A stretch of DNA of 64,000 nucleotides from Elusimicrobiota bacterium (GCA_023249675.1 JAHFCE010000016.1:247-64246), one strand, 5' to 3'; shown: positions 16,781-42,138, counted from the stretch's first letter. The notes: generated by a model not told the origin, from the sequence alone. Made by a program: numbers and translations.

Positions 16781-16820
16781 GGGCTTGACCTCCTCAGAAC
16801 GTCTGGCGCGCTCAACTGTG

Positions 16821-16851: not shown

Positions 16852-16915
16852 TAGGTTATCTAATAAATAATATCATGGGGTTCCGGCGCGTCCATTCTTT
16901 TGTTAGGATGAGGCT

Positions 16916-18274
16916 GTGAAGACGCTGCAGATCTATCTCGCCGACCTCAAGGAGCTGCTGGAAAGCCGCGACTTCGTCTCCGCGCGCACGCTTCTCAAGG
17001 AGATCGGCCCGATCGATCTCGCCGATGGCTGGGACCACTTCGACGCCGACGAGCGCGTCGCGATCTTCCGCCTCAGCACGCGGCAGAAGGCGATGCAGCT
17101 CTTCGAGGAGCTCGAAAGCCACCAGCAGGCCGCGCTCGTCGGCGGCCTGCAGCGCCGGGACGCCCAGGAGCTGCTCAGCGACCTCGATCCCTCCGCGACG
17201 AGCCGCATGATGCGCGATCTCCCCCAGCCGCTCGTGCGCCAGCTCAGTTCGATCATGAAGAAAGGCGGGCAGGAGTGCGTCCAGCAGTACCTCCAGCACC
17301 CCCCCGAGTCCGTCGGCGCGCTCATGCGCGGACGTTACATCACGCTCGACGAGAAGTGGACGACGAAAGCCGCGGTCGAGCGTATCCAGTACAGCACGCG
17401 CCTGCGCCGCATCGAGGAAACGCACCTCGACACCTTGATGGTCGTCGATTCCACGAACCATCTGCGCGGCGTCGTCGGCCTCAAATCCATCGTCGTTGCG
17501 CCCAAGGACATGCTCGTGCGCGAGCTGATGGATCAAGCACCCCGCACGTTGACGCCCGAGATGGACCAGGAAGAGGCGGTCAAGCTCTTCACCAAATACA
17601 AGCTCAAGAGCGCGCCGGTCGTCGACCAGGATGGGGCTTTGCTCGGCGTCGTGGTCTACCGCGACATCTTCGCGATCGCCCGGGCCGAGACCGAAGAGGA
17701 CTTCGCGAAGATGGCCGGCACGCAGACCGGCCTGCTCTCGCAGCCCGCGTGGCGCATCGCCAAGATCCGCCTGCCCTGGCTCGTCGCGACCTGCGCGGGC
17801 GAGATGCTCGTTTCAAGCATCATCAAGGGCCATGAGGAAACCCTCGCCCGAATCGTGGCGCTGGCAACCTTTATCCCCCTCATCGCCGCGATGGGCGGCA
17901 ACGTCGGAGCCCAGACCGCGACCGTCATGGTCCGCGGCCTGGCCACCGGGGAAATCGGCCGCGAGGACGAAGCCGAGGCCGTGGTCAAGGAAGTCGCCGT
18001 CGGCATGATGATCGGCGCCGTGTACGGCGTGCTGATCGGTTTCTGCGCGCACTTCTTCTACGGAGACCGCTACGGCTGGCCGTTCTCGGCGGTGGTAGGA
18101 TTTACGATGTTCATCTCGATGACGACGGCGGCCATGGCCGGCTCGATCGAACCCCTCGTCTTCCGCCGCCTCGGCATCGACCCGGCGACCGCGACCGGTC
18201 CGCTGATCACCACCTTCACCGACCTGCTCTCGACCTTGGTCTACTTCACGCTCGCCGCCAAGCTCCTCCTTTAG
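16916..18274 (+). CDS. mgtE: magnesium transporter MgtE
   Basis: N-domain, CBS pair, TM region with FIPLIAAMGGNVGAQT and GPLITTFTD. Confidence 0.95.
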   Translation: MKTLQIYLADLKELLESRDFVSARTLLKEIGPIDLADGWDHFDADERVAIFRLSTRQKAMQLFEELESHQQAALVGGLQRRDAQELLSDLDPSATSRMMRDLPQPLVRQLSSIMKKGGQECVQQYLQHPPESVGALMRGRYITLDEKWTTKAAVERIQYSTRLRRIEETHLDTLMVVDSTNHLRGVVGLKSIVVAPKDMLVRELMDQAPRTLTPEMDQEEAVKLFTKYKLKSAPVVDQDGALLGVVVYRDIFAIARAETEEDFAKMAGTQTGLLSQPAWRIAKIRLPWLVATCAGEMLVSSIIKGHEETLARIVALATFIPLIAAMGGNVGAQTATVMVRGLATGEIGREDEAEAVVKEVAVGMMIGAVYGVLIGFCAHFFYGDRYGWPFSAVVGFTMFISMTTAAMAGSIEPLVFRRLGIDPATATGPLITTFTDLLSTLVYFTLAAKLLL

Positions 18275-18910
18275 TCAGCCGCCGCGCGAGGCCAGGACGG
18301 CCAGAAAGTCGGGACCGGGCTCGGCCTTGAGCTCATAGCCCAGGTCCAAGTGAAGGGTGTGGGCGTGCAGCATCAAGCGTTTGGCCCCCCCAATAGGACG
18401 CGGCGGCGGCCCGTAGCGGGGATCGCCTAGAATGGGATGGGCTTCGGAACTGAAGTGAGCCCGGATCTGGTGCTTGCGGCCGGTCAAGGTCTCCACGCGC
18501 AGAAGCGTGGCCCCGTTCAAAGTCCGTTCCACGCGCCATTTCGTCACCGCCCGCTTTCCATCCGGAGCCGGGGCCACTCGCCCGGAGCTGAACTCGCGCA
18601 GAGGCTTGTCGATCTCTCCGCTGCCGGCCATGACTCCCAAAACGGCGACGAGGTAGTCCTTCCTCGCGCGGCGCTCCTCGAACTCCAGAGACAGCAGGCG
18701 GTGCGTCTGCGCGTCCTTGGCGAACACCAGGATGCCGCTCGCGTCGAGGTCGAGGCGATGCACCGTGAAAATCCTCTTGCGCAGGCGCCGCTCGATTTCG
18801 ATGTTGATCGCAATGCCGATCTCCCCGCGCCCCGGGATCGTGGGCAGCCCAACGGGCTTGTTGACGGCGATGATGCGGTCGTCCTCGAAAATGACGGGCG
18901 TTTCGATCAC
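18275..18910 (-). CDS. RluA-family pseudouridine synthase
   Basis: AVNKPVGL, VHRLDLDASG (catalytic Asp), LTGRKHQIRAH, GDPRYG, LMLHA; GTG start at 18910 inferred. Confidence 0.9.
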   Translation of the reverse strand: MIETPVIFEDDRIIAVNKPVGLPTIPGRGEIGIAINIEIERRLRKRIFTVHRLDLDASGILVFAKDAQTHRLLSLEFEERRARKDYLVAVLGVMAGSGEIDKPLREFSSGRVAPAPDGKRAVTKWRVERTLNGATLLRVETLTGRKHQIRAHFSSEAHPILGDPRYGPPPRPIGGAKRLMLHAHTLHLDLGYELKAEPGPDFLAVLASRGG

Positions 18911-18953
18911 AGGGAGGATATAGCAGGCGGACGGCAAACACGCCAGGGGTCCA

Positions 18954-19772
18954 CTAAGACTCCGCCGCCTCGAGCGCGGCCAGCGCGAGCAGCCAGCGCT
19001 CCTCGCACGAGACGTCCTCAAACGACTCGTAGGCGAGTTCCCCCGATGGGGCCTTCGCCAGGAGAGAGCGCGCCCCCCGCCCGCGCAGCGCTCCCGGCGT
19101 AAGGACGGCGAGCTCGGCTACCAGCGCCCGAAAATTGAGCTCGGCACTGTAGCTCATCTTGGGGCCGAGCGCTGTGTACTCGAACTCCGCGGCGAATATT
19201 CGAATGCGCCGCGCGGGCGCGGCGAAGACCATATCGATGAACGGCGTGCGCCGCTCCTCTGCCACCTGGCGCGTTTTCGCTTTGCCGCCCATCAGGGGCA
19301 GGCCGGTCGCCAAGGTCATGCCCAGGCGCACGGATTTCTCCGCAAGCGTGGGTCCCTCGGTCACCGTCTTAAGCGCGCTCTCCGTCACGACGCCCGCAGA
19401 CAGCACCTTCAAGTGCGTCCAGATGAGGCGCTCGCGTTGGGCGCCGCCGCGCCCGGCAAGCACGTCGAAGCCGTCGCCGGACAATTCTGCCTTGGTCACG
19501 GTAATCGCAACCGAAGGCTCCTCTAGGAGGCCGACGGGCACGGCGACGGCGGCAAGCCCCGCCGCGCTCAACGCCGCCGCGAGCGCCTCCGCCTCCTCGG
19601 CGGCGGACGGTTCCGCCACGATTCCCCAGGAACGCCGAACGACGGGAAGCCAGGTTTCCGCCGGCAGGCGCCCGCGGCCGGCCAAAATGGCCGCGACGGC
19701 CTTCGCGTCAAAGCGCGCCGGCGCGCGAAGCAACACAGCGTGCGGCGGCCGGGTGGCGCCCATTCCGGACAT
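18954..19772 (-). CDS. hypothetical protein
   Basis: 272-aa ORF with coding-like composition, contiguous with the RluA gene. Confidence 0.65.
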   Translation of the reverse strand: MSGMGATRPPHAVLLRAPARFDAKAVAAILAGRGRLPAETWLPVVRRSWGIVAEPSAAEEAEALAAALSAAGLAAVAVPVGLLEEPSVAITVTKAELSGDGFDVLAGRGGAQRERLIWTHLKVLSAGVVTESALKTVTEGPTLAEKSVRLGMTLATGLPLMGGKAKTRQVAEERRTPFIDMVFAAPARRIRIFAAEFEYTALGPKMSYSAELNFRALVAELAVLTPGALRGRGARSLLAKAPSGELAYESFEDVSCEERWLLALAALEAAES

Positions 19773-19818
19773 GCTAGCAAGATAATGCTAGAATCAGCCG
19801 CGACAAATTGGAGGAAGC

Positions 19819-20238
19819 ATGGCTTTTTACCGCAAGAAGCGCCGGAAAGCGGGCCCCAGCAAGAACGACGAGAAGGTCCTGCGCGCCCAAACGGCCGTGG
19901 ACAACGAGCGCGCCGCCGGCACCCTCTCCACTCGCTTTCCCACCCTGCGCTCCCTGCGCGTGAAGGTCTCGATCGCCACGCCCCAGGGCGTAATCCTCGA
20001 GGAGTCCGAAGAGACCTACGGCCCCAACGACCCGTTCTTTCTCGAGGCGGACTGCCCCGGCTCGTGCGGCTCGGGCTCCTACGACTTCGCCGTCCTCATC
20101 GCCCAGTCGCTCGAGACTCTCCAGAAGCGCGGTGCGGCGCAGATCATCTGCTCCGAGCCCTCGTACAGCGGCGCTGCCGGCACTGTCTGCGGCTGCATCG
20201 CGAAATGCGAATTCACCGCCGAAACCGCGCCGTCCTGA
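19819..20238 (+). CDS. small Cys-containing hypothetical protein (possible Zn-binding)
   Basis: RBS GGAGG; CPGSC and ICSE...VCGC cysteines. Confidence 0.7.
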   Translation: MAFYRKKRRKAGPSKNDEKVLRAQTAVDNERAAGTLSTRFPTLRSLRVKVSIATPQGVILEESEETYGPNDPFFLEADCPGSCGSGSYDFAVLIAQSLETLQKRGAAQIICSEPSYSGAAGTVCGCIAKCEFTAETAPS

Positions 20239-20245
20239 AAACGCC

Positions 20246-20554
20246 ATGAGCCACGAGGCGCGGCGAGCCGCCGCCCTCCTCCTCGGCGCGCTCCTGTTCG
20301 GCGCCTGCGCCTCGGCGGATAAGGAGCGCGAGCCCTTCCTCGAGGGCGATCGGCCCCACTCCGTATCGGCAAAGTCCGACACCGGCTCGTGCAAGCCCTT
20401 CTTCGTTTCCCCCGCCCTCGACTGGGGCGAGGGCGCAGCGCGCCACTCCTGTTGGAACCGCCTCTGGGAAGTCCCCACCGCCCTCGTTGTGGCACCGATC
20501 GCGCTCGGAGTCGCGACGGCCCCGGTCTGGGTTCCGATCGTCCTGCTGCTATGA
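20246..20554 (+). CDS. lipoprotein with C-terminal TM segment
   Basis: Lipobox LFGAC after hydrophobic stretch; start moved to ATG 20246. Confidence 0.65.
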   Translation: MSHEARRAAALLLGALLFGACASADKEREPFLEGDRPHSVSAKSDTGSCKPFFVSPALDWGEGAARHSCWNRLWEVPTALVVAPIALGVATAPVWVPIVLLL

Positions 20555-21262
20555 GAAGCGCTGAAAGCCAACGACGAAGGCCATGGACAGCAGCGGGTAC
20601 ATGCAGCCTCGCAGCAGCGAATTCCAGACCGGGTGGTTCATGTCCACCAAACGCATCAGGCACGCGCTTCCGGCAAGCCAGGCGATCGGCGGCAGGATCA
20701 ACTCGTTAGGAATCAGCGGCCAGGGATTCATCTTGGTCGCCACGGCCAGTCCCACGATGGCCCAGGACACCGCGCCCAGCCAAAGCCTGGACCCGCCACA
20801 GCCGAGCTCCGCCGCCCAACGCGCATAAGCCGCCTGCGAAAAAGCCATCGCCGCAAAACCCAAAGTCAGAACTCCAAAAGGCACGATCCAAAGCCATGCC
20901 GAGACCTTCGGCCCCAATGCGCGGTATCCCTTTTGCGCGAGAAGCCAGAAGCCCCGCGCCCGATCCGAGAGTGTTGCCGTGTGGCGCCGCTTCTGCTGCA
21001 AAGTGCGCATCAGATTATCGAGCACCGGCGATTGCCCCTGACCCGCCGCCCGAATTTGCCTCAAATCATCGGCCAGCTCCCCTTGCGGCTCGGAGGCATC
21101 GCTCGCCGCCTGACCCGCTTGCCGCAACATCTGCAGCAGCTCGGCAGAAACAACGGGAGCGGTCTCCATCTGCGGCTCCGCGGGCAACACGGACATCGCC
21201 CGCGGTCCGTAATGGACCGCGCTTCCCAAACTCAGCAACAGCATCAGCCGGCCGAAGCTCAC
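20549..21262 (-). CDS. hypothetical membrane protein
   Basis: N-terminal hydrophobic leader and about 4 C-terminal TM segments. Confidence 0.6.
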   Translation of the reverse strand: MSFGRLMLLLSLGSAVHYGPRAMSVLPAEPQMETAPVVSAELLQMLRQAGQAASDASEPQGELADDLRQIRAAGQGQSPVLDNLMRTLQQKRRHTATLSDRARGFWLLAQKGYRALGPKVSAWLWIVPFGVLTLGFAAMAFSQAAYARWAAELGCGGSRLWLGAVSWAIVGLAVATKMNPWPLIPNELILPPIAWLAGSACLMRLVDMNHPVWNSLLRGCMYPLLSMAFVVGFQRFS

Positions 21263-24900: not shown

Positions 24901-24974
24901 CGCGGGGTAGAGCAGCCCGGTAGCTCGCAAGGCTCATAACCTTGAGGTCGCTGGTTCAAATCCAGCCCCCGCAA
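24901..24974 (+). tRNA. tRNA-fMet (initiator, anticodon CAT), CCA not encoded
   Basis: CGCGGGG/CCCCGCA acceptor stem with C1:A72 mismatch, CAAGG-CTCATAA-CCTTG anticodon arm, GCTGG-TTCAAAT-CCAGC T arm; followed by CGG. Confidence 0.95.
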
Positions 24975-26671
24975 CGGTCTGGAATGCGGACTGGCAGCTC
25001 CGCCGGGAAGTCCGGCCAAGCCTCACGGAGCGTCAACAGAGCGGTCGGATCGATAACGATCCGACCGCTCTTGTCTTTATCCACCACGATCTCCCTGATG
25101 ACGTGGGTGAGAACCGCACGTCGGAGCTCCATCCCGACGCCGAAGTAGAATCCCCGGAAGCGTTCCGCCCACAGCACCAGCTCTTTGTCCTTCCAAGTCA
25201 GCGCACCCGGATCTCCGCCGGGGACCGCCGCCACCGACAACTGCTCCAGTCTTTTCTCACGTCGCGCGATCTCGGCGACGAGGCTGGCGGCCTGCGCGCC
25301 GGCGGCGGCGATAGCCCTAGTGAAATTCTCTATCTCACCTTGAAGCTTCGTCCGCTCCTTCTCAGCAGTTCGGCGCGTCTCATCAATGCGGTCCCCCTCG
25401 GCGGACGTCCATTCATTGACAGCCTCGAATAGCGACCGAAGCGAGTCAGGATCGGTGATGGCTTTGAGCACGGCCTCTTCGATGACTTCCTCGGCCATGT
25501 CCATGACTATCGGCCGCGTCGGGCAGGATGCCCAGCCGTGCCGCGTCTTATTCCCGCAAACCAGATATGCAAACGCCTTGCCGTTCTTCTTCTTGCTGTT
25601 GATCACGAAGCCTGAACCACACGCGCCGCACTTCAACAGGCCGGCCAGGAGCTGTCGACGTACGCTTGTTTTCGAGTGCTTGCGCGCCTCGAAACGTGTC
25701 CAAAGCGTTTGAAACTCCTCTCGCGTAAAAATAGCCGGATGGGTCGCCTCCCGAGACCAAACCCATTCCTCGATGGGATTCTCCGTCCATCGCCGCTTGC
25801 CCGACGCCTTCTTCCATTTCCGAACGTTCCAAACAAGAAAGCCCGTGTATCGCGCGTTCTTGAACGCGCTCCGGATGTTCGATGGATTCAAGTGGCGTCC
25901 TTTCTTTGGCCCCCTGAAGCCGAGGACGTGGAGCTCGTTGGCGATGGTCCGCAGCCCCTTAGCTTGCTTCAGGTGCATGTCGACGGCAAGCCGTACCCAT
26001 CGCCATCGCGGCTCCGACGTCGAATCTTGCGGACCTGGCTTCTCATCCAGATCTAGACGGTACCTGAAGCGCTCTTCGCCGCGAGTATTCTTGAGGCCCA
26101 GCGAAACCGGACGGGAGACATAGCCGTCCGGCGCCTTTCCCCCGTTGAGGTAGCCTTCTTCGCAGTTCCCCGTCATCATCGCATGGGTCGTAATCCCAGT
26201 CTGTTTCGAGAAAAATGCGTTGACCTTTTGGATGATTCCCCGCATGAGGTCGCCGTGGGCGCCCTCCGCTTGAAAAGCGGGCTCGGTGGCGCTCATGATG
26301 CGGATGCCCTTTCCGTTGAGGATCATGAAGTCTATCTCGCTATCCTCAGCTCGACCCCAGCGGCTAGAGCTAAAGATAACGATACCGACGAATCGGCGGG
26401 TAGTGGTCATAGCCTCTGCGAGCAGCGCCTTATACCGCTTCCGATTCTCGGTTGAGGTTCCGCTTAGCGCCTCGTCGTAGAACACATCGACGATGCGGAT
26501 ATTGTTTTTTTGGGCGAACTCGCGACAGCGGTTCTGGCGGTTCACCCCCGTGCTTGTATCTTGGAGGTCAGAGGAGTAGCGGTCGTAAATGACGAAGGGC
26601 GCAGGTTCCTGCGTCCGCTTACGCCACTCCTCGTAGGTCAACGCCTTCATCGTCGTCTCCAGCCTTGCCAT
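24956..26671 (-). CDS. large serine recombinase (integrase)
   Basis: YDRYSS catalytic Ser, SRWGR, recombinase domain, CGACG...C...C zinc ribbon, coiled coil; C-terminus reads across attL into the tRNA antisense. Confidence 0.92.
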   Translation of the reverse strand: MARLETTMKALTYEEWRKRTQEPAPFVIYDRYSSDLQDTSTGVNRQNRCREFAQKNNIRIVDVFYDEALSGTSTENRKRYKALLAEAMTTTRRFVGIVIFSSSRWGRAEDSEIDFMILNGKGIRIMSATEPAFQAEGAHGDLMRGIIQKVNAFFSKQTGITTHAMMTGNCEEGYLNGGKAPDGYVSRPVSLGLKNTRGEERFRYRLDLDEKPGPQDSTSEPRWRWVRLAVDMHLKQAKGLRTIANELHVLGFRGPKKGRHLNPSNIRSAFKNARYTGFLVWNVRKWKKASGKRRWTENPIEEWVWSREATHPAIFTREEFQTLWTRFEARKHSKTSVRRQLLAGLLKCGACGSGFVINSKKKNGKAFAYLVCGNKTRHGWASCPTRPIVMDMAEEVIEEAVLKAITDPDSLRSLFEAVNEWTSAEGDRIDETRRTAEKERTKLQGEIENFTRAIAAAGAQAASLVAEIARREKRLEQLSVAAVPGGDPGALTWKDKELVLWAERFRGFYFGVGMELRRAVLTHVIREIVVDKDKSGRIVIDPTALLTLREAWPDFPAELPVRIPDRCGGWI

Positions 26672-30426: not shown

Positions 30427-31164
30427 CTATGCGACTTGCCCCCCATAACACTCCGCGAGCCAATTACAGACCTTGCAGTCGTCCGCTGCCGCCGGCATGG
30501 GCCCTCTGATGATCTCGGCCGCGCGCCTCACTGCCTCCAAGGCCGCTTCAGGATCGACCTGTAGCTCGGCAACCTCAATGTGCCACGCCAGCTCCAGCTC
30601 ACGCAGGTCGGGCGCGAAGAAAACAAGATACGCTCTGCCGCTCAGTGGCGGGAATCCTTCGTTCATTTGCGCAAGAAGGGCATAGCTGCTCATCTGAAGC
30701 TGATACGATGGATAAATTTCCAATTTATTCGAAAAGCCGCGCGTTTTATAGTCTAGGACTGAGAGACTTCCGTCTGACTCTAAAACCCACTCATCTGGTG
30801 TTCCTCCAAAGCGCACCCCCTGCTCTTCCCACATCCAGGATATTTTTTTAGGAAGTTCGTGATATAGCCGTCGCCCCGGCAGATCACTTCCCCACAAGGA
30901 CGGCAACTGCCCCCCAAGCCGGTGAAGATTGGAAAGCTCATGCAGCGCGATATCGACGCCGCCGGGCAACGAAGGGTACTTCATCCGCGGCACCGCCAAG
31001 CCATGCGCCTTACGGAACCCACAGCGCTCACAATCCAGAAATTCACCGAGACCTGTCGGACTAAGGGAAATAATGCCGTCATCCTGCCTGCGCTTCGCCG
31101 TCGAAATCCAACCGTTTTCATCCATAAGGATCCTCCAGATAACTTCCCGTGTAGAATGCTGCAA
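30427..31164 (-). CDS. PD-(D/E)XK nuclease, Cas4/RecB-like with four Cys
   Basis: LSPTG..CERC, GTPD, LDYKT, QMSSY (QxxxY), CKVC. Confidence 0.85.
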   Translation of the reverse strand: MQHSTREVIWRILMDENGWISTAKRRQDDGIISLSPTGLGEFLDCERCGFRKAHGLAVPRMKYPSLPGGVDIALHELSNLHRLGGQLPSLWGSDLPGRRLYHELPKKISWMWEEQGVRFGGTPDEWVLESDGSLSVLDYKTRGFSNKLEIYPSYQLQMSSYALLAQMNEGFPPLSGRAYLVFFAPDLRELELAWHIEVAELQVDPEAALEAVRRAAEIIRGPMPAAADDCKVCNWLAECYGGQVA

Positions 31165-31789: not shown

Positions 31790-32776
31790 ATGGCAGCCAA
31801 GAAAAAAACACCCCGGAAGCCTCGAACGAGAAAATTCCAACTTTACGATGCTCCTGGGCAACCGGCAGTCGGATTCAATAAAGCCATTTACGGCTGGCTT
31901 ACAGGCGAAATGGTCGTGATGGAACATTCGCCTCCGATGGCATTCGGAGCGCATCGACTAGCGTATGATGCAAGCGTTGCGGCGATAATGAGGACGGGGG
32001 CGTCAAAGTTAGAGGCCCATAAAAAAGCATTATCGAATCTAACAGCGTTGCTTTTCAGTATCGACAACAACACGGAAATGGCCGCGCGTCTGGCCAGTGC
32101 CCCGATTAATCCGACGGGATTTAGGAGCACGCTTTCGCAAGGTATGGCCAAGAATGCTGGCGAGAATTTCATCAATACGATCGTATATGCACTATCGGAC
32201 ATTCTCGCGGATCAGAACGACGTTCTAGTTGACAAAGGCTGCCCGCCCTTATTAAAAAAATTCCTCACGGTAAAACGACGATTCAACGGTAAAAATGGAA
32301 CTTCACGGGACTTAGACCTAAAGATTGAAGTGGATTTCTGCATCTTTTCAAAAGCCGACCCACTCAACGCAATTATAGTCAGCGGGAAGACTCGACTAAA
32401 AGAAGTATTCCACATAGGAACAATGTGGAAGCTTTTCTTCGACATGATTGGGGATCCCCACTGCATGGAAAAATGGGGGCTACAAAGCGAGGAGCTAGGC
32501 GAACAGAAATTGATCTATGCGTTTGCTACGGCGGACATGATTGCTGAGGGTGGCCGAAAAACGCAAGGCCCCGATGTAGGGCCCGATGGCGTTCGAAACC
32601 TGCTCGCCCTCGACGCATCCTTCTTCGACTACGTCTTCGTATCGAAAACCTACCCGACAACAGCTACGCATGTCTCGCCCACACTGGATCTCGCTGCCGG
32701 ACGCGAAGCGCTTTTCCACCAGATGGGATGCCTGCTAGATCTTGTTCAGCAGAAGTTCAACCTGCGGCTTTCGTAA
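31790..32776 (+). CDS. putative type II restriction endonuclease (PD-(D/E)XK)
   Basis: AGENF, IEVD...SGKTRLKE resembling the SxKxxxRER motif; convergent with a C5 MTase; ATG 31790 chosen. Confidence 0.7.
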   Translation: MAAKKKTPRKPRTRKFQLYDAPGQPAVGFNKAIYGWLTGEMVVMEHSPPMAFGAHRLAYDASVAAIMRTGASKLEAHKKALSNLTALLFSIDNNTEMAARLASAPINPTGFRSTLSQGMAKNAGENFINTIVYALSDILADQNDVLVDKGCPPLLKKFLTVKRRFNGKNGTSRDLDLKIEVDFCIFSKADPLNAIIVSGKTRLKEVFHIGTMWKLFFDMIGDPHCMEKWGLQSEELGEQKLIYAFATADMIAEGGRKTQGPDVGPDGVRNLLALDASFFDYVFVSKTYPTTATHVSPTLDLAAGREALFHQMGCLLDLVQQKFNLRLS

Positions 32777-34888
32777 AGAACGTTTTATCGCGCGGCTAAC
32801 GCCCCGCTCGAACGCAAACAGCCCGTCGCTCACATCGAGCGAGTTTAGCCGCTCAGCGAATTTATGAGCGAGAAGCGGCGGGACCGCATTTCCGATCATC
32901 GAATAACCCTCAACCACTCCTACCGAACCGAACGAAAACCAATCCGGAAATGATTGGACTCGCGCCGCTTCCCGCATACTAAGGCCGCGCGCTTCGAACG
33001 GGTGGGAATACCCGTAAGTATCTTTGCCGATGTGCGCAACTATGGTCTTGCACGGCCGACTCGCATCCAATCTTTCGAACCAGTCTCCATGCACATTGTG
33101 ACCACGACCGAGATAGGCCTGGTCCAAGAGATGGTTCTTCCCCTCCAACTCGGCCGGCAACTTGCACTCCTCAATCATAAGGCGAAGCAGCAAACTGCCA
33201 TTGATCCGACTTGACAGATCTCCCAATTGCTCCGCCGTCGGCAAACCTTTTATTTTTCCCTTCTGTTTTTTAACAAACGCATGGACTTGGGAAATTACCG
33301 ACTCCAATTCAAGATAGGTTGGTGAACGACGCAGCTTGTAATCCATCCACCTCTGTCCCGGAGCGAATTTCTCTAACAGCGCTTTGTCATCAGCCCTTAG
33401 TCTTCTGGCAATATGAGCATCGACGAGCGCTGGGGAATCGATACTGCCAACCTGCGGCTGCCGCACCCATTCGATGTACTGTTTTTCTGCTTCATCCATT
33501 CGTCCATCAACCAGGGTATAAGCGGCAACTTTATCACCAGTTCGACACTGAGCGCCCCCAGGAACGAATTGAAGTGGGGCATCAAGACCCGCCAATGCGA
33601 CTCCCAAGGAAACTCGTTTACTGTGAGTCGGAATCGAAAAGAACTTTTCGGCGGTGCCCTTTGGGGTCGTGGCCGAATTAAATCCGGCCATTATATAACG
33701 CAGCCGATTTTGGGGAATTCCAAAATCTGATGCTGTAATGACTTTAGAGACAACATGATAATTTAGGCGCGCACCAGAGAGTTGCGCGATAGCTTCCTCG
33801 AGCAAAGCGGGTGCATCCATCGTCCCGTTGGGGGTTTTTAGAACACTTTCAAAATTACGCACATTTTCGAAAATGAAAACATTCGGCTTAAGAGCTTCAA
33901 GAAACAGGACATAGCGGTATAGCAACGCGTTGCGCTCGTCACCGAACTCTTCTGACGACCATGAATATGATCCCTGTTCCCGCAACCTACTCATCACTGG
34001 CCGGCCAATACGACTAAACCCTTTACATGGCGGCCCTCCGAGAATGAGGTGAACGCGACGATCGTCAGTATAAAGCGCCACGATGGCTTTTGATTTTGCC
34101 GCAAGAAAAGCGATGCGCGTAGCAGCACGTTCCGCTCGCCATTCGATCCAGAGAGCTCTCAAAGCCTTGCCTTGCTCCGAACCAAGAAACGCAACAACCG
34201 ACTTCGCTCGCTTCGGAACAGGACTCTGCTGACCTGAAGCCGTCTTTTGTGCGGCCTCACGCAATTTCCCGATTTCCGAATTCCAAAGAGAGTTGGCGAT
34301 TTTTTTCTCTCTCCGCAAAACCTCATCGATAGAATGGACGCGCCCTGTCGGAGGGGTCTCCAGCAAGGAATATTCCTGCCCCCAAGGCAGGCCGATTCCG
34401 CTCAGCAAACTGTCTGCCTTGTACACAGAGCCGAGTCCCAATCGATCAAGAAACGCTCTACAAATTCCAGTCTTAAAGGCCTCTTTGTCAATCGAGCCTG
34501 CGGATTGGACATAATCAGGCGATTCAAATAGAGTTCGAGTCTTTATCTGAAAGGATTCATCGAGTCTACGAAGTTGGCCGAGAAAGATATTTAGCCCCAA
34601 CGCCGAAAGATCCCCCTGGAGAGCCCTATCCGGTGTCGCATATGCGTAGTGAACGAGGTAGTAAAGGAGCACCTCATCGGCACTGCCGAACCACGTAATA
34701 TCGCAAAGGCGACCCGTTGTCCATTCTCCAGCATGCGAATGGTTGCTGTTATAGCAGCGCACAGCGGCTGCATCAATATCAATACCGAGAATCGTCCGAT
34801 AAGTCCGATCGCCCTTGAAGCTGTCGAAGCCCAAACTGAGCCCCCCACAGCCGCAAAACAGATCTACGACTTTAATTTCTCTGGTCAT
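32735..34888 (-). CDS. DNA (cytosine-5) methyltransferase, 717 aa
   Basis: DLFCGCGG (I), GGPPCKGFS (IV, Cys at aa 288), FENV (VI), QNRLR (VIII), REAARVQSFP and IGNAVPP (IX/X). Confidence 0.93.
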   Translation of the reverse strand: MTREIKVVDLFCGCGGLSLGFDSFKGDRTYRTILGIDIDAAAVRCYNSNHSHAGEWTTGRLCDITWFGSADEVLLYYLVHYAYATPDRALQGDLSALGLNIFLGQLRRLDESFQIKTRTLFESPDYVQSAGSIDKEAFKTGICRAFLDRLGLGSVYKADSLLSGIGLPWGQEYSLLETPPTGRVHSIDEVLRREKKIANSLWNSEIGKLREAAQKTASGQQSPVPKRAKSVVAFLGSEQGKALRALWIEWRAERAATRIAFLAAKSKAIVALYTDDRRVHLILGGPPCKGFSRIGRPVMSRLREQGSYSWSSEEFGDERNALLYRYVLFLEALKPNVFIFENVRNFESVLKTPNGTMDAPALLEEAIAQLSGARLNYHVVSKVITASDFGIPQNRLRYIMAGFNSATTPKGTAEKFFSIPTHSKRVSLGVALAGLDAPLQFVPGGAQCRTGDKVAAYTLVDGRMDEAEKQYIEWVRQPQVGSIDSPALVDAHIARRLRADDKALLEKFAPGQRWMDYKLRRSPTYLELESVISQVHAFVKKQKGKIKGLPTAEQLGDLSSRINGSLLLRLMIEECKLPAELEGKNHLLDQAYLGRGHNVHGDWFERLDASRPCKTIVAHIGKDTYGYSHPFEARGLSMREAARVQSFPDWFSFGSVGVVEGYSMIGNAVPPLLAHKFAERLNSLDVSDGLFAFERGVSRAIKRSLRKPQVELLLNKI

Positions 34889-36971: not shown

Positions 36972-38099
36972 TCACTCGTAAACCTCGATCGTTCCGTTAT
37001 TCGCCGCTCGGATAGCACGCGATCCTCCGTCTTGAGAGCAAACGACTGCCATGCACTGCGGAAGAGAGTGGCAGAAACGGAATGCGGATCGGTGTCTCGT
37101 GCCGAATGCTTCGACTTCAACACTACGATGATCCGGCATGACGGATATCTCATCAACGTCCGCCTTGGAGATGATTTCTGCACCAAACCCTAGAATTCGC
37201 AAACGATCAGTGAGAACAACGGCTCCGTCAACGGTTGCAAGATCTCCCACCCGATCGACAAGTTCTTTAAGCTCCGATTCCGCGCTTTCAATCTTGTGCC
37301 GATCCGTGTCTTCGCTAAATTGCCGCATAGCCGTTTTTAGAATCGGCCAAATCTGATTATCATCACATTGATATTTTGAGCGGACATGGGGTACAAGGCT
37401 CTCCCTAGCCAGGGTGTCGGGCACAAGAAGGACGGTCCCGCCATGTCCACTGTGAGCGATGCGGGAAAAGATGCTCATAAAATGACCCGGATATACGACA
37501 ACTTGCGGTGACCAGCCACCTTCGTAGCTGAGATCGGCCCAAAGCTCCGTGTTGACTGCCGAAATAAATTCCGAGACAGGACCGAAGATTCCGGACTTAA
37601 AATTCTCAGGGATTAGTTGCCCACCGCGTAGAGTCAAAAAGACCTTCTCATCTCGACCGACCTCCAGGGTGCCAGGAGAGATTGCCGAGATCTTTAGTTG
37701 GCTCCAGGCCGAACCGCATAGGCCCCAAATTGATGGGGGACCAAAAGCGCTTGGCCAATTGATACCAATCAACGCTTGGCCACTCATTGCGACGGGTGCC
37801 AGTCGTCGTAGCTCATGGACCGAGAACTCTCTAGGCTCAGAGAACACCGTTGGCTGCCTCGTCTTGTCCGGATTACACATTACCGCGCTAAACTGTGTTT
37901 TTCGGCGCTCCTCCATTGTGAAGCTTGCGTGGTAAATGGTGTCGAGAAGTTGGCCGAGAGAATGATCGTTAGGTAGCGGAGGTACATCCATATCGTAGCG
38001 GCGCCACTCTGGCCAAGTCTTTTTGAGTGGCTCAATAATGTCGATTGGATATCTGCTCGTCGTTTGCGGCCGATTGAAGAGACGGTTAAATATGCCCAT
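36972..38099 (-). CDS. diadenylate cyclase (DAC/DisA_N) domain protein with N-terminal putative sensor domain
   Basis: ATVDGAVVL (DGA) and FGTRHRSA (RHR), then VVCSQDG; no TM or HhH, so not CdaA/DisA; N-terminus resembles DACNV-type domains from memory. Confidence 0.85.
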   Translation of the reverse strand: MGIFNRLFNRPQTTSRYPIDIIEPLKKTWPEWRRYDMDVPPLPNDHSLGQLLDTIYHASFTMEERRKTQFSAVMCNPDKTRQPTVFSEPREFSVHELRRLAPVAMSGQALIGINWPSAFGPPSIWGLCGSAWSQLKISAISPGTLEVGRDEKVFLTLRGGQLIPENFKSGIFGPVSEFISAVNTELWADLSYEGGWSPQVVVYPGHFMSIFSRIAHSGHGGTVLLVPDTLARESLVPHVRSKYQCDDNQIWPILKTAMRQFSEDTDRHKIESAESELKELVDRVGDLATVDGAVVLTDRLRILGFGAEIISKADVDEISVMPDHRSVEVEAFGTRHRSAFRFCHSLPQCMAVVCSQDGGSRAIRAANNGTIEVYE

Positions 38100-38112
38100 T
38101 TGATTTCTGTCC

Positions 38113-38193
38113 GGCTAACGCAGACGCTCTTCCGCAGCGGCTTCAACGGTCCAACCAAACGAGGCCGCTGGCGGCAGAAACGAATGGCTAGAA
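38113..38193 (-). other. attC-like site
   Basis: Minus: TTCTAGC-cattc-GTTTCTGCCGC...AGCGGC/GCCGCT stem...GCGGAAGAGCG-tctgc-GTTAGCC, 13 nt before the DAC ATG. Confidence 0.7.
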
Positions 38194-38204: not shown

Positions 38205-38546
38205 TCAACTTACTGGCGAGTCTGCCTTATTTAATATTGGCCGGCGACCATGCGTCGTCTGGTACTGGTTGAGCCAGGTACGCTCCAGCTTGGGTAAATT
38301 ATTTTTGTCGTACTCTGAGAAGTGAAACCAAAATGCTTTTCCATTTTCCGTTAGTCCTATCTTTCCCGGGTTATCGAGGTGCTGCTGGAATCGTTTATTA
38401 AGATCAACACTTAAGCCGATGTATAGAATTGCACCGTTGAATGTCGACAATATGTAGCACCCTGCGATTTTGGGAACCTTACGGAAATCCAGTAATTTGA
38501 AAAGGACTCTAGTTGAGGGTTGAGGGGCGAGTTCTGCCACATTCAC
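38205..38546 (-). CDS. GIY-YIG nuclease
   Basis: GCYIL..ILYIGLSVDLNKRFQQH, LE, PILN; 4-nt overlap with the DGQHR gene. Confidence 0.85.
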   Translation of the reverse strand: MNVAELAPQPSTRVLFKLLDFRKVPKIAGCYILSTFNGAILYIGLSVDLNKRFQQHLDNPGKIGLTENGKAFWFHFSEYDKNNLPKLERTWLNQYQTTHGRRPILNKADSPVS

Positions 38547-39670
38547 AGCTCAATATCTCCGCGACCGCTCGATTTGTGAAGGGCTTTGGCCATCTCCGTA
38601 TTAATCACATTCACAGCGCCTGAGTTGAGATAGCTAGCTTTGCCACCCTTAACCCAGAATTCAGTGTGACCGACGCCGGCATAATCGCCGTCCACATTCT
38701 CAAACGTCTGACGCAAGAGAGCCTCCATCGTGGCCACCTTAAAGTTCGGCATATTTATCATCTTGTTCATAAATGGCACGCAGAATTTGCAAAAAAGTTC
38801 TACGCCGTTGTATTTAAAAAGAACAGTCGGCTCATCAGTTCCGAGGATATTTGTTATCGCCTTCCAGTAATTAAGAAAGATGCCGAGTTGTTTGTCCTCG
38901 GGGAATGCTGCAATTGGATTGTTGGCGACTAGAACATAGCGCTTGATCGACTTCACAAAGCTTTTCTGGTTTACGGTGGCCTCGTCATTTTCCTCATTTG
39001 CCATTTCGATTCTGTTGAGCCAAGGGCTCTCTTGATGGGTATTCAGAAAGTCGACATATTTGAGCGCCTTCTCATCTTCACCTTTGTGAACCGTATTAGC
39101 GATCCATTTGGGTAAATTGGGAATATCCTCCAGCTCCATTGACTGCGTAAGACGCGCGAAGATTCGCTGCTCAACACCCTTTTCAACGCTCTTCTGCGTG
39201 GTATTTACAATCAAGAAATGGCACATCTGAGCGATTTTCGGCAGATTGATTGCGATGTTGACTGGGACTTCAAAACTGAGGACCCGCGGGTCTTTTCCCG
39301 CTGCCATCTTAAGTCCTTCCACCCGGTGCTGCCCGTCAACAACGCTAAAGGGGCCGATTTTCTCAATGTCTATCTCGATCGTGTTATCAGCAGAGCTAAA
39401 AGGGATGCTCTTGTGAGTCGCCAAGAAAATGCTTGTGGGCAGAAAGGCATCTAGGGTTTCTTGACCAGCTTCAATATAGTCAGCCAATTTTTTTGCCCGC
39501 CCCTTGTTCAATAATCGCTGATACCCCTTATCGTTAACATTCTCTGGATCTAGTGTCTCTACGCTGTAGAAGCTTGGTATTAAAAGGTCTGAGACTCTAA
39601 GGGATGTCGCATAAAGAGTGAGGGAGCCTTGTTTGACGAGTGCCGCCGGACGCTTAATTACTTTAGACAT
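38543..39670 (-). CDS. DGQHR domain protein (ParB-like / DndB superfamily)
   Basis: YQRLL..R...LADY, LPTSIFL, VVDGQHR, F..VNTTQKSV. Confidence 0.9.
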   Translation of the reverse strand: MSKVIKRPAALVKQGSLTLYATSLRVSDLLIPSFYSVETLDPENVNDKGYQRLLNKGRAKKLADYIEAGQETLDAFLPTSIFLATHKSIPFSSADNTIEIDIEKIGPFSVVDGQHRVEGLKMAAGKDPRVLSFEVPVNIAINLPKIAQMCHFLIVNTTQKSVEKGVEQRIFARLTQSMELEDIPNLPKWIANTVHKGEDEKALKYVDFLNTHQESPWLNRIEMANEENDEATVNQKSFVKSIKRYVLVANNPIAAFPEDKQLGIFLNYWKAITNILGTDEPTVLFKYNGVELFCKFCVPFMNKMINMPNFKVATMEALLRQTFENVDGDYAGVGHTEFWVKGGKASYLNSGAVNVINTEMAKALHKSSGRGDIEL

Positions 39671-39696
39671 GTTGTCTCCTTCCGAATCCGTCTACC

Positions 39697-39724
39697 CTTC
39701 AACGCAGAGGGCGAGCGGCGGCCG
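39697..39724 (-). other. right half of an attC-like site
   Basis: CGGCCGCCGCTCGCCC-tctgc-GTTGAAG, close to the right half of the 40533 site (CGGCCGCCGCCCACCC-tcggc-GTAAGAA). Confidence 0.5.
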
Positions 39725-39728
39725 ATAC

Positions 39729-40526
39729 TCACTTTGACAAATCAATAAACATAGGCAGTTTCACCAGGCCAGCTTGTACGAGTGTGAGGAGCGCAATCAT
39801 GAGCGTTAGTCCGACCATCGCCCATTGAATCCGAGTATTTTCCCGATGCCTACGCTCGTCTTCTTCAAACTTTTCGATAGTCGAAATTGTGCGTCCCGTA
39901 ACTACATACCGATGGTTTTGCTTGCCTAACTCGCCACTTTCACAGAGCGACTCAAGATGCAGTTCAACCTTCCTCTGCTCGGTATCCCGATTAGGATGAA
40001 GCACCCACATCAGAGAATTCAATTCAGTCATTACGTCTATAACTGAAAGCGGATGTCCGTTGTCGACATGGCGGTCCCTAAGTAATTTCAGTATCCGGAG
40101 GCGTTCAACTCGCTCGAGACTCCGCATGTTAAATACATACTGCTGAATTCTACTGAGAAGTCGTTGTAAGTGTATCTTGAGATAGAGAACGGGGAAGAAC
40201 CATGTTCGAGCCACATCGTGCATCCCCCGATAGCGGACCTCACTCAATCCGTAATAGTGCAGGATCTGAATGGTGGCGGGATCAATATCCGTGTAATTCA
40301 ATTCGAAATCTGTAGCGAATGAATGTCCATCCCAACGTTTCCCACGAAGAATCGCCCCCTCCATGCTGCGCGCCCAAAAATAAGGATTAGCGGCATCGTC
40401 TATCCGTACGCTAAAGCAGTTGATCCGCTCCCCAGCTTCACCTGAACGAGGAACTCTATCGGAGCAGCTTCGATTCAGAATGAATTTCAATAACCGTCTA
40501 TAGAGCTTGTCGATAAATTGGTTCAT
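39729..40526 (-). CDS. hypothetical protein, winged-helix-like region plus C-terminal TM
   Basis: LHLESLCESGEL..YVVTGRTISTIEKFEEDERRH followed by IQWAMVGLTLMIALLTLVQAGLV. Confidence 0.8.
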   Translation of the reverse strand: MNQFIDKLYRRLLKFILNRSCSDRVPRSGEAGERINCFSVRIDDAANPYFWARSMEGAILRGKRWDGHSFATDFELNYTDIDPATIQILHYYGLSEVRYRGMHDVARTWFFPVLYLKIHLQRLLSRIQQYVFNMRSLERVERLRILKLLRDRHVDNGHPLSVIDVMTELNSLMWVLHPNRDTEQRKVELHLESLCESGELGKQNHRYVVTGRTISTIEKFEEDERRHRENTRIQWAMVGLTLMIALLTLVQAGLVKLPMFIDLSK

Positions 40527-40532
40527 AGATTT

Positions 40533-40613
40533 TTCTTACGCCGAGGGTGGGCGGCGGCCGCTTCAACTGTCCCCCCAAACGAGGCGACCGGCCGCTCTAC
40601 CCAATAGTTAGAC
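40533..40613 (-). other. attC-like site
   Basis: GTCTAAC overlapping the TAA of the upstream gene, 5-nt spacer, L boxes GGTAGAGCGG/CCGCCCACC, R' GTAAGAA; centre GCTTCAAC.GTCC..CCAAACGAGGC shared with the 38113 site. Confidence 0.75.
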
Positions 40614-41366
40614 GCCACCTTGCCCCCTGCCCGACGGAAGCGGATACGACGTTTGCGTCGCCGTTACTGTAACGTCTCCGAACGTCAATTTGCCCGCATC
40701 TTCCGGGAGGCGCTGTTTCAGTAAATCCTGATCTTCTTCCGGTAAATCTTCGAGTGACTGCTTGAGGTTCTTAACTAGGTCCATCGGTTTGCCGCTGTGC
40801 GTTTTAGGTGCTCCGGAATTCAGATCAGCTAAGTAGTTTTCTACCGACGCTTTGAAATCAGCAGTGAACGTATCAATGTTGATGATGAGGCGATTGGAGT
40901 GAGCCGTCTTAGTTGCTGATGCCACTTGTCCAGCGAGATCAGTGAATTGCAGGTGCTTATCCGAAAGCAGCCTGCCGCGGCGAGTCGGATAAAATCCGGA
41001 ATCAGTCCCAAAGCCGAGATAATGGCTGTGCAGAAGCCCGCATCGGTAGCAGACATAGAGTGCCTTTGTGCTCCCCTGATAGGTCGCCGGAAAATAATGC
41101 GTCAGGAAGGCCGTAAAACTTTCCTCGGATTTCCCACCCTGATTCTTGTAGCCAAGCAGAGCCCGTCCGCAGGTTTCAATACCAACGCAGACGAGTTGCA
41201 AGGTGCCGCCATTGGATTCGCCCAGGGGGATGGGCCAGCCTCCAACCGACTGCTGAGGAGTTGATTTCCAGACTTCAGGCTTTGAGTGTAAATTGGCAAA
41301 GATGTCCTGAAAGATCATGCGGACAAACCGGCGCGACTTGCTTTCGAGCTTGGCATCCATTTTCAT
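40608..41366 (-). CDS. HEPN-like protein
   Basis: GIETCG...FTAFLTHYF...LYVCYRCGLLHS (RX4H); start moved to ATG 41366. Confidence 0.65.
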   Translation of the reverse strand: MKMDAKLESKSRRFVRMIFQDIFANLHSKPEVWKSTPQQSVGGWPIPLGESNGGTLQLVCVGIETCGRALLGYKNQGGKSEESFTAFLTHYFPATYQGSTKALYVCYRCGLLHSHYLGFGTDSGFYPTRRGRLLSDKHLQFTDLAGQVASATKTAHSNRLIINIDTFTADFKASVENYLADLNSGAPKTHSGKPMDLVKNLKQSLEDLPEEDQDLLKQRLPEDAGKLTFGDVTVTATQTSYPLPSGRGQGGV

Positions 41367-42063: not shown

Positions 42064-42074
42064 TTGTTATGTGC

Positions 42075-42138
42075 GTCTAACGCCGCCCCTGTGCTGTGGC
42101 GGCTATCGAGATTCTTACGCTAACTCAAGTGGTTAGTT
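42075..42138 (-). other. attC-like site
   Basis: AACTAAC overlapping the TAA of 42133 and GTTAGAC 11 nt before the ATG of 42063; inner L pairing poor. Confidence 0.55.

What the first reader, a model, noticed from the sequence alone, without database searches (positions are those of the whole stretch)
38205..39670. DGQHR (ParB-like) protein translationally coupled to a minimal GIY-YIG nuclease, outside any dnd/dpd cluster
The two genes overlap by 4 nt and form one cassette. DGQHR proteins (DndB, DpdB) are nucleotide-binding ParB relatives usually tied to DNA modification clusters, which are absent here. The pairing parallels DUF262-HNH modification-dependent enzymes (GmrSD, SspE), suggesting an NTP- or modification-sensing nuclease defence.
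Basis: partly seen in the sequence, partly recalled or inferred. Interest (0 to 1): 0.65.

Follow-up and report, generated by a model that had tools for sequence, protein, structure and literature searches.

The report
ParB-like plus GIY-YIG nuclease cassette
Two overlapping genes, one for a nucleotide-binding ParB-like (DGQHR) protein and one for a minimal DNA-cutting GIY-YIG enzyme, form a conserved, uncharacterised unit that moves between distant bacteria, here as an integron-type cassette, and most likely cuts foreign DNA.

Summary
ORF 38543-39670(-) is a 375-aa DGQHR-domain protein and ORF 38205-38546(-) is a 113-aa GIY-YIG nuclease; they share a GTGA stop/start overlap. The pairing is far from chance. 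In 38 of 39 genome loci from more than 10 phyla the nuclease follows directly, and the exception ends at a contig edge. The NTGA overlap is kept in 35 of 36 intact loci. No third gene is conserved. The two trees co-vary (Mantel r 0.82). Both genes are under strong purifying selection. The host genome has no DndC or DpdA, and the pair is absent from 60 relatives. It also sits in attC-type arrays in two other phyla, so it travels as a gene cassette. The nuclease keeps all catalytic residues and has no DNA-binding domain. The DGQHR protein has a ParB/Noc-like fold with invariant QR, DGQHR and FxxxN motifs. The best reading is a stand-alone, split analogue of GmrSD-type enzymes: the ParB-like subunit targets or licenses the nuclease against invading DNA. 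The defence role and the trigger are inferred, not shown. No paper found describes the pair.

The parts
39697..39726 (-). Upstream attC remnant, 3' half only: ATCGGCCGCCGC (39726-39715) ... CTCTGC + R' box GTTGAAG (39703-39697). It marks the 5' boundary of the cassette.
   Evidence: It closely resembles the 3' halves of the IntI-linked sites on contig C28 (ATAGCCGCCGCTCG..CCTCTGCGTTAGGG). On its own the profile hit is weak (E 1.9 genome-wide). No matching R'' half was found.
39675..39683 (-). Shine-Dalgarno-like GGAAGGAGA, 4 nt before the ATG of the DGQHR gene
   Evidence: Read directly from the sequence. No sigma-70-like promoter was found upstream.
38543..39670 (-). DGQHR-domain (DndB/DpdB-like, ParB/Srx-fold) protein, 375 aa. 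The proposed role is nucleotide-binding targeting or licensing subunit.
   Evidence: TIGR03187 scores 105.9 bits. Q51-R52, D112-G-Q-H-R116 and F152xxxN156 are invariant in 35 sequences. The AF2 model has pLDDT 82 and its best PDB matches are Noc, pNOB8 ParB-N and PadC. dN/dS is about 0.02-0.03.
38543..38546 (-). GTGA overlap: the stop of the DGQHR gene and the start of the nuclease gene (translational coupling)
   Evidence: Seen. An NTGA overlap is conserved in 35 of 36 intact loci.
38205..38546 (-). Minimal GIY-YIG nuclease, 113 aa, with no DNA-binding domain
   Evidence: PF01541 scores 34.7 bits. Y31, Y42, G44, R52, H56, E88, N93 and N106 are invariant in 36 sequences. The AF2 model has pLDDT 89.8 and matches the UvrC GIY-YIG domain (1yd6) and R.Eco29kI. 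All of the best 150 relatives are stand-alone proteins of about 110-116 aa or shorter fragments.
38113..38192 (-). Downstream attC-like site. It has a degenerate R'' TCTAGCC (38192-38186), an imperfect stem, a core CTCGTTTGGTTGGACCGTTGAAGC (38163-38140) and R' GTTAGCC (38119-38113). It marks the 3' boundary of the cassette.
   Evidence: An iterated profile seeded only on the IntI-linked C28 sites hits 38098-38172 (E 0.04 genome-wide). The bottom strand folds with z -2.7. A separate metagenome contig has the same core between CCTAAC-CATTGG and CTGC-GTTAGGAC.
40533..40613 (-). Neighbouring attC-like site of the same array (R'' GTCTAAC 40613-40607; R' decayed to GTAAGAA 40539-40533), which bounds the next cassette upstream

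Best explanation
The two genes are one self-contained module that moves as a unit. Here the unit is an integron-type gene cassette of about 1.58 kb (39702 to 38119) in an attC array that has no integrase of its own. The array lies inside a low-GC island next to tRNA-Met.

Shown:
- The two proteins are always encoded together, with a stop/start overlap.
- They co-evolve and are both strongly constrained.
- The nuclease has a complete GIY-YIG active site but nothing else.
- The DGQHR protein has a ParB-like nucleotide-binding fold followed by a helical domain with no known match.
- No methylase or other partner belongs to the unit.

Inferred:
- Translational coupling yields a complex.
- The DGQHR subunit binds a nucleoside triphosphate and DNA, and positions or licenses the otherwise untargeted nuclease.
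- The complex cuts invading DNA from phages, plasmids or other mobile elements.
- With no modification gene in the unit, self DNA is spared either because the target feature (for example a modified base) is absent from the host, or because cutting is gated by nucleotide binding.

Functionally it is a split analogue of GmrSD/BrxU/SspE enzymes, built from a different ParB-like clade and a different nuclease fold.
For: - Conserved pair: the nuclease follows DGQHR in 38 of 39 genome loci over more than 10 phyla, with the NTGA overlap kept.
- No third conserved gene within 8 kb, and no recurrent neighbour family among 129 neighbours.
- Co-evolution: Mantel r 0.82, reached by 0 of 2000 permutations.
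- Purifying selection: dN/dS about 0.02-0.08.
- Catalytic residues of the nuclease are invariant, and its fold matches UvrC and Eco29kI.
- The DGQHR motifs are invariant, and the fold matches Noc, ParB-N and PadC.
- A DGQHR-like domain fused to an HNH nuclease exists.
- Accessory distribution: 1 of 61 related genomes; on 5 megaplasmids; in 3 IMG/VR contigs, one next to a tape-measure gene; in 0 of 50,697 isolate phages.
- Some neighbours are defence or mobile-element genes: AriA, MADS, a DRT-type protein and relaxase, and PD-(D/E)XK plus UvrD helicase genes, a WYL-domain gene and a transposase on a Sinorhizobium plasmid.
- The unit decays by a nonsense mutation, a frameshift and IS insertions in 4 loci, as costly accessory genes do.
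- Cassette context: attC-like flanks match the genome's IntI-linked sites. The pair lies inside attC-type arrays in Sediminibacterium and Competibacteraceae.
- Integron cassettes are documented carriers of defence systems (10.1101/2024.07.02.601719, PMC12614218).
Against: - There is no experimental datum for any member, and no hit to any PADLOC system beyond weak DpdB, DndB and UzuA matches.
- Many neighbourhoods are housekeeping genes, so defence-island enrichment is not demonstrated.
- The very low dN/dS is unusual for proteins in an arms race.
- A C5 methylase in the same island argues against broad m5C-dependent cutting.
- Physical interaction, NTP binding and the trigger were not testable here.
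- No DGQHR-GIY-YIG fusion exists among the best 150 relatives of the nuclease.
Confidence: 0.55

Rival explanations
1. Addiction (toxin-antitoxin-like) module. The GIY-YIG nuclease is a toxin and the DGQHR protein is its neutraliser or repressor. The pair then stabilises cassette arrays and islands against loss instead of acting on invaders.
For: Chromosomal cassette arrays commonly carry such modules (own knowledge). The pair lies in attC arrays. The two genes are translationally coupled. DndB is reported to act as an ATP-modulated repressor (PMC10853773). PIN and HEPN genes are neighbours in some loci.
Against: In four independent loci the DGQHR gene is broken (nonsense at codon 51, a frameshift, two IS insertions) while the nuclease ORF and all its catalytic residues stay intact. 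That is hard to reconcile with a free toxin. A 375-aa, extremely constrained upstream 'antitoxin' is atypical. The nuclease lacks any DNA-binding part.
Confidence: 0.12
2. Selfish mobility module. The nuclease cuts empty target sites, as homing GIY-YIG enzymes do, and the DGQHR protein supplies site recognition, so the pair promotes its own spread.
For: Many GIY-YIG enzymes are homing endonucleases (TIGR01453 gives a weak hit). The unit is compact, occurs across phyla and is often solitary.
Against: Insertion sites share no conserved flank or target gene. Where ends are recognisable they are attC-type GTT.../...AAC boxes used by tyrosine recombinases. Synonymous sites are saturated even between close copies, so spread is old and slow. 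No empty-site variants appear in four metagenome runs.
Confidence: 0.08
3. Interference with plasmids or conjugation instead of phages. By analogy with the ParB/Srx-superfamily enzyme Osa, the pair would degrade incoming single- or double-stranded DNA during transfer between competing mobile elements.
For: The pair is carried on 4 conjugative and 1 non-mobilisable megaplasmids. Relaxase genes are among its neighbours. ParB/Srx enzymes with nuclease and NTPase activity act in plasmid conflict (reference 19 cited in PMC10853773).
Against: Most copies are chromosomal and not next to transfer genes. This is a special case of the main explanation and not a distinct mechanism.
Confidence: 0.12
4. 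A remnant or satellite of a DNA-modification system (Dnd or Dpd type), or a DNA-repair nuclease related to UvrC or Cho.
For: Pfam DndB, PADLOC DpdB and weak UvrC and Cho hits.
Against: Scores are far below the DndB-type and DpdB equivalog cut-offs (63 against 450, 44 against 300). DndC and DpdA are absent from the genome. No modification gene is linked in any of 39 loci. The pair is absent from 60 of 61 related genomes, so it is not housekeeping.
Confidence: 0.04

Closest known systems
GmrSD / BrxU / SspE family (DUF262 ParB-like NTPase + DUF1524 His-Me/HNH nuclease; Type IV or phosphorothioate-sensing restriction)
   Same: A ParB/Srx-fold nucleotide-binding module with QR, DGQ[Q/H]R and FxxxN motifs (PMC4619093) is combined with a nuclease. 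The system is stand-alone, without a methylase, and is horizontally mobile. GmrS and GmrD also occur as separate genes (PMC4619093 abstract).
   Different: There is no Pfam GmrSD_N/DUF262 or DUF1524 hit. The nuclease fold is GIY-YIG, not HNH. Among the relatives examined the unit is always two genes with a stop/start overlap and never a fusion. BrxU is only rank 19 and not significant in the fold search. The trigger is unknown.
DndB and DpdB (DGQHR proteins of phosphorothioate and 7-deazaguanine DNA modification clusters)
   Same: They share the DGQHR domain (TIGR03187, PF14072) and the signature motifs.
   Different: Scores are far below the equivalog cut-offs. No dnd or dpd genes are present in the genome. 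The partner here is a nuclease, not a modification machine.
Minimal and restriction-type GIY-YIG nucleases (UvrC N-terminal domain, R.Eco29kI, R.Hpy188I)
   Same: The fold and the catalytic Tyr, Tyr, Arg, His, Glu and Asn set are the same.
   Different: There is no DNA-binding extension and no cognate methylase (0 of 39 loci). It forms a distinct 110-116-aa clade of about 188 clusters at 50% identity.
Phage-defence integron cassettes (BRiCs of mobile integrons; defence cassettes of sedentary chromosomal integrons)
   Same: It is a compact one- or two-gene unit bounded by attC sites and carried in arrays with other defence-like cassettes (10.1101/2024.07.02.601719; PMC12614218).
   Different: This pair is not mentioned in the two cassette papers whose text was searched. 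The array here lacks an adjacent integrase and its sites are partly decayed. Most other copies are solitary, in genomes without IntI.

Membership tests
DGQHR domain family (TIGR03187) | Score above the curated cut-off, and the signature motifs QR, DGQHR and FxxxN | tested here: met
   It scores 105.9 bits against a cut-off of 58.85. Q51-R52, D112-R116 and F152/N156 are invariant in 35 sequences.
DndB (Dnd phosphorothioation system) | Equivalog-level score (TIGR04172) and linkage to dndACDE | tested here: not met
   TIGR04172 scores 63.2 bits against a cut-off of 450. The Pfam DndB hit covers only profile positions 2-143 of 338. DndC is absent from the whole genome.
DpdB (7-deazaguanine Dpd system) | NF041060 score above cut-off and linkage to DpdA | tested here: not met
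   NF041060 scores 43.8 bits against a cut-off of 300. DpdA is absent from the genome.
GmrSD / BrxU / SspE | DUF262 (PF03235) N-domain | tested here: not met
   There is no PF03235 hit at E <= 0.01. The relationship holds only at motif and fold level.
GmrSD / BrxU / SspE | DUF1524 / HNH-type nuclease domain | tested here: not met
   The partner is GIY-YIG (PF01541) with a UvrC-like fold.
GmrSD / BrxU / SspE | NTP-dependent, modification-dependent DNA cleavage | not testable with these tools
   This needs biochemistry and phage plating.
GIY-YIG nuclease superfamily | Pfam score, catalytic residues and fold | tested here: met
   PF01541 scores 34.7 bits against a cut-off of 22.6. Y31, Y42, R52, H56, E88 and N93/N106 are invariant. 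Foldseek matches 1yd6 and 3mx4.
Type II restriction-modification (GIY-YIG class, e.g. Eco29kI) | Adjacent cognate DNA methyltransferase | tested here: not met
   The window's C5 methylase recurs in 0 of 39 loci. No DNA methylase is listed among the 25 neighbour families that recur most, none of which is found in more than 2 of 129 neighbours.
Integron gene cassette | An attC site at the 3' end, related to attC sites beside an integron integrase | tested here: met
   A profile seeded on the IntI-linked C28 sites hits 38098-38172 (E 0.04) and 40516-40620 (E 2e-18 after iteration). Boxes and the stem are present but R'' is degenerate. The same core lies between textbook boxes in another contig.
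Integron gene cassette | An R' box of the preceding attC at the 5' end | tested here: inconclusive
   A 3' half-site with GTTGAAG lies at 39703-39697 and resembles the C28 sites, but the profile hit is only E 1.9 and no R'' half was found.
Integron gene cassette | An integron integrase available in the genome | tested here: met
   TIGR02249 scores 427.8 bits against a cut-off of 265 at C28:71788-72990, on another contig. Only 5 of 39 other host genomes have one.
Toxin-antitoxin module | The toxin is lethal without the partner | tested here: inconclusive
   Four loci have a broken DGQHR gene with an intact nuclease ORF, which argues against it. Expression was not tested.

The most novel reading that the evidence does not exclude
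The pair is a widespread, so far unnamed stand-alone immune system in which a DndB-like ParB-fold NTPase licenses a minimal GIY-YIG nuclease. Its extreme sequence constraint (dN/dS about 0.02, 75-80% identity across phyla) would mean that it reads a universal, slowly changing feature of invading DNA or of the nucleotide pool, and not a fast-evolving phage protein. It spreads as a cassette through attC-type arrays, including arrays in Bacteroidota genomes that lack a canonical integron integrase.
Probability: 0.35. Interest if true: 0.7.

Novelty: new variant of a known kind. Interest (0 to 1): 0.55.

Why it matters
If the pair is a defence system, it adds a compact (1.5 kb), very widespread module to the ParB-like-NTPase/nuclease class. 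A word-indexed search found at least 2,016 DGQHR relatives, and the nuclease subfamily has about 188 clusters at 50% identity. It uses a different nuclease fold from the known members. It would also give the large set of orphan DGQHR-domain proteins a role outside DNA-modification clusters. Its carriage in attC arrays in three phyla supports the view that integron-like platforms store immune genes well beyond Proteobacteria. The strict two-gene architecture and the invariant motifs make it directly testable with a handful of point mutants.

Tried and rejected
- A home-made attC finder (R''/R' boxes plus folding) returned only GC-rich noise and missed the true sites. It was replaced by profiles seeded on the IntI-linked sites.
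- The shared core motif occurs only twice in the genome, both times in the window.
- Integrase co-occurrence is weak: 5 of 39 host genomes have IntI.
- An apparent IntI next to the pair in genome G032 was a contig-numbering coincidence; L032 has no IntI.
- Laying four metagenome runs showed no cassette-less joints.
- No sequence-level PDB relative exists for the DGQHR protein, and only a marginal UvrC hit for the nuclease.
- There is no named PADLOC system and no informative PHROG match.
- The neighbour tallies gave no recurrent partner.
- No DGQHR-nuclease fusion was found among the best 150 relatives of the nuclease. The longer database entries are over-called N-termini.
- Literature searches for DGQHR or DndB together with GIY-YIG found no description of the pair.
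- Linkage to the adjacent DACNV-DAC cyclase, the 573-aa membrane protein, the 265-aa protein or the C5 methylase was rejected: 0 of 39 loci.
- Complex prediction was not possible with the tools available.

Full report
**Observation**

On the minus strand, ORF 38543-39670 (375 aa, ATG) and ORF 38205-38546 (113 aa, GTG) overlap by the four bases GTGA.
- The first ORF passes the DGQHR domain model TIGR03187 (105.9 bits, cut-off 58.85). It also passes Pfam DndB, but only over that model's N-terminal 143 positions.
- The second ORF passes Pfam GIY-YIG (34.7 bits, cut-off 22.6).
- PADLOC gives only weak DpdB, DndB and UzuA matches and no system.

The pair lies in a low-GC stretch (about 47-52% GC) of a 65% GC genome. 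The stretch runs from tRNA-Met (24901-24975) to about 43.5 kb. It carries a serine recombinase, a tyrosine integrase, a Cas4-like PD-(D/E)XK protein, a 717-aa C5 methylase, a DACNV-DAC cyclase and several unknown genes, nearly all on the same strand.

**Is the pairing real?**

A scan of one genome per species returned 39 loci from Elusimicrobiota, Melainabacteria, Bacteroidota, Acidobacteriota, Planctomycetota, Verrucomicrobiota, Nitrospirota, Armatimonadota, Patescibacteria and Alpha-, Beta- and Gammaproteobacteria.
- The nuclease follows directly in 38 loci. The exception, L039, ends at the contig edge.
- In 35 of the 36 intact loci the junction is ATGA, GTGA or TTGA. L027 has a 2-nt gap instead.
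- None of the other 13 genes of the window's island recurs next to the pair, apart from a generic tyrosine integrase match in two loci.
- De novo clustering of all ORFs within 8 kb finds no third conserved gene.
- Among 129 nearest neighbours, no Pfam or PADLOC family recurs more than twice.
- Pairwise distances of the two proteins co-vary (Mantel r 0.82, reached by 0 of 2000 permutations). The nuclease diverges about 1.6 times faster.
- Both genes are under strong purifying selection. dN/dS is about 0.02-0.03 for DGQHR and about 0.06-0.08 for the nuclease.
- Synonymous sites are saturated even between the 90%-identical copies. The striking 75-80% identity across phyla therefore reflects constraint, not recent transfer.

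**Distribution**

- The pair is absent from 60 of 61 related genomes, including 36 species of the same genus.
- It occurs on five rhizobial or Cupriavidus megaplasmids.
- Close relatives occur in three IMG/VR contigs. Two of them show the nuclease gene as well, and one of those lies next to a tape-measure gene.
- It is in none of 50,697 isolate phage genomes.
- On a Sinorhizobium plasmid it sits among PD-(D/E)XK and UvrD-helicase genes, a WYL-domain gene and a transposase.
- Other contexts mix housekeeping genes with PIN, HEPN, caspase-like, AriA, MADS and DRT-type genes.
- Four loci show decay, and always in the DGQHR gene: a nonsense codon (L013), a frameshift (L034) and two IS insertions (L037 rve-type, L038 IS1595). 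In all four the nuclease ORF and its catalytic residues are intact.

- The genome has a true integron integrase on another contig (TIGR02249 427.8 bits, cut-off 265; C28:71788-72990).
- Textbook attC sites lie beside it: CCTAAC-CAATGG ... ATAGCCGCCGC ... CTGC-GTTAGGC.
- A profile built only from those four sites finds window 40524-40611 as its best hit elsewhere in the genome (E 0.0017).
- After iteration the profile finds window 38098-38172, directly after the nuclease gene (E 0.04 genome-wide). Weaker hits lie at 42068-42118 and 39700-39724. All are on the gene strand and in intergenic gaps.
- The boxes are: upstream R' GTTGAAG 39703-39697; downstream R''-like TCTAGCC 38192-38186; core 38163-38140; R' GTTAGCC 38119-38113.
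- The bottom strand of the downstream site folds better than shuffles (z -2.7).
- A separate metagenome contig carries the same core between CCTAAC-CATTGG and CTGC-GTTAGGAC.
- So the two genes form one cassette of about 1.58 kb in an integrase-less array. Several boxes are decayed, so the array may no longer be mobile. No cassette-less variant was seen in four runs.

Elsewhere the picture is mixed.
- The pair lies inside a 12-copy array of 180-nt attC-like repeats in Sediminibacterium.
- It lies between textbook attC sites in a Competibacteraceae genome.
- Complementary GTT.../...AAC ends bracket it in about a quarter of loci.
- In a Chitinophagaceae contig an Xer/IntI-like recombinase sits directly upstream.
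- Only 5 of 39 host genomes encode IntI, and most copies look solitary.

**The proteins**

- Nuclease. Y31 (the GCY triplet), Y42 and G44 (the YIG triplet), R52, H56, E88, N93 and N106 are invariant in 36 sequences. The model is confident (pLDDT 89.8) and matches the UvrC GIY-YIG domain and R.Eco29kI. There is no DNA-binding extension.
- Nuclease relatives. All of the best 150 relatives in 1.84 billion representatives are stand-alone proteins of about 110-116 aa or shorter fragments, never fusions. Invariant residues in the first 24 residues and in the C-terminal P-x-L-N-x-x-x-S-P tail are candidates for a partner interface (an inference).
- DGQHR protein. Q51-R52, D112-G-Q-H-R116 and F152xxxN156 are invariant, as is a long run at 145-170. 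The model (pLDDT 82) matches the ParB-family nucleotide-binding proteins Noc, pNOB8 ParB-N and PadC in its N-terminal half. The helical C-terminal half has no match, and BrxU appears only at rank 19.
- Distant relatives are modular. Two DndB-like genes overlap RelA/SpoT-like genes. One VDGQHRLE domain is fused to an HNH nuclease, and it aligns with the family profile (probability 87.5%, E 3.6e-6).

**Mechanism**

- Shown: co-inheritance, coupling geometry, an intact active site, a ParB-like fold with its nucleotide-binding motifs, and the absence of any modification partner.
- Inferred: the two proteins form a complex. The DGQHR subunit binds an NTP and DNA and targets or licenses the nuclease. 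The substrate is invading DNA. Self DNA is spared because the recognised feature is absent from it, or because cutting is nucleotide-gated.
- The C5 methylase in the same island argues weakly against broad m5C dependence.
- The addiction-module rival is weakened by the four loci that lost DGQHR but kept the nuclease.
- The homing rival is weakened by unrelated insertion sites and recombinase-type ends.
- The Dnd/Dpd and repair rivals fail on scores, on the absence of DndC and DpdA and on the patchy distribution.

**Comparison with what is known**

The closest analogue in logic is GmrSD/BrxU/SspE. PMC4619093 documents the motif-level relationship of DGQHR to DUF262. Membership fails, because there is no DUF262 or DUF1524 hit and the nuclease fold differs. 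The protein is a member of the DGQHR domain family and of the GIY-YIG superfamily, but not of DndB or DpdB. Full-text searches found no paper describing the pair. The Dnd reappraisal and the two integron-cassette defence papers whose text was searched do not mention it.

Two earlier follow-ups of this scan reached the same reading for copies in other genomes. Those are AI notes, not independent evidence. I re-derived the conservation here and added the cassette context.

**Verdict**

This is a real, strictly conserved, uncharacterised two-gene nuclease module. It is a new variant of the ParB-like-NTPase-plus-nuclease kind, carried here as an integron-type cassette. The structural claims are solid. 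The defence function is likely (about 0.55) but untested.

Noticed in passing
L040 (= L008) 9200-20750, Sediminibacterium ginsengisoli: About 12 copies of a 180-nt attC-like repeat (..CTAAC-ATT-GGTTTTGCAAAAGTTGGGC ... GCCCAACCTTCGCAAAGCC-TTTAAC-GTTAG..) separate co-oriented small ORFs, including a HEPN_AbiV gene and a guanylate-cyclase-domain gene. The genome has no integron integrase above the TIGR02249 cut-off. This is a large cassette array in Bacteroidota whose recombinase is unidentified.
   Followed up: partly
L004 8564-9832 and 9947-9961, Chitinophagaceae MAG: A 423-aa Xer/IntI-like tyrosine recombinase (TIGR02249 171 bits, cut-off 265; XerA_Arch 200 bits, cut-off 220) ends 115 nt before the cassette's left box GTTGCCTGCCATTAT. 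The contig breaks just after the cassette. This may be an integron-like platform with a non-canonical integrase.
   Followed up: partly
L056 4362-7215 and L057 4389-7038 (IMG/VR contigs): Distant DndB/DGQHR-like genes (26-28% identity) are each preceded by an overlapping gene of about 540 aa with a RelA/SpoT domain. This is a second, different DGQHR-plus-effector pairing.
   Followed up: no
L058 5845-7032 (IMG/VR contig): A single 396-aa protein has a VDGQHRLE ParB-like domain (weak GmrSD_N and DndB hits) fused to a C-terminal HNH nuclease. An Exo_endo_phos-family protein is encoded downstream.
   Followed up: partly
Own genome C28:67500-73000: The integron integrase (C28:71788-72990, minus strand) and its attC sites (68080-70030, minus strand) are co-oriented, with the low-GC cassettes lying downstream of intI. 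This differs from the usual divergent arrangement.
   Followed up: no
Own genome C50:36449-38030 and C14:9426-9500: Further attC-like sites match the IntI-linked profile (E 1.6e-13, 2.7e-9 and 1.7e-6). They suggest at least one more integrase-less cassette cluster in this genome.
   Followed up: no
L037 10742-11872; L038 10640-13024; L013 codon 51; L034: The DGQHR gene is inactivated independently four times: by an rve-type IS, by an IS1595-family element, by a CAA-to-TAA nonsense codon in the isolate Flavobacterium restrictum, and by a frameshift. The nuclease gene stays intact each time.
   Followed up: yes
window 32735-34888 (-) and 30427-31164 (-): The same island holds an unusually long (717 aa) C5 cytosine methylase whose Pfam match is split into three stretches, and a Cas4-like PD-(D/E)XK protein. 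Neither is linked to the pair elsewhere.
   Followed up: no
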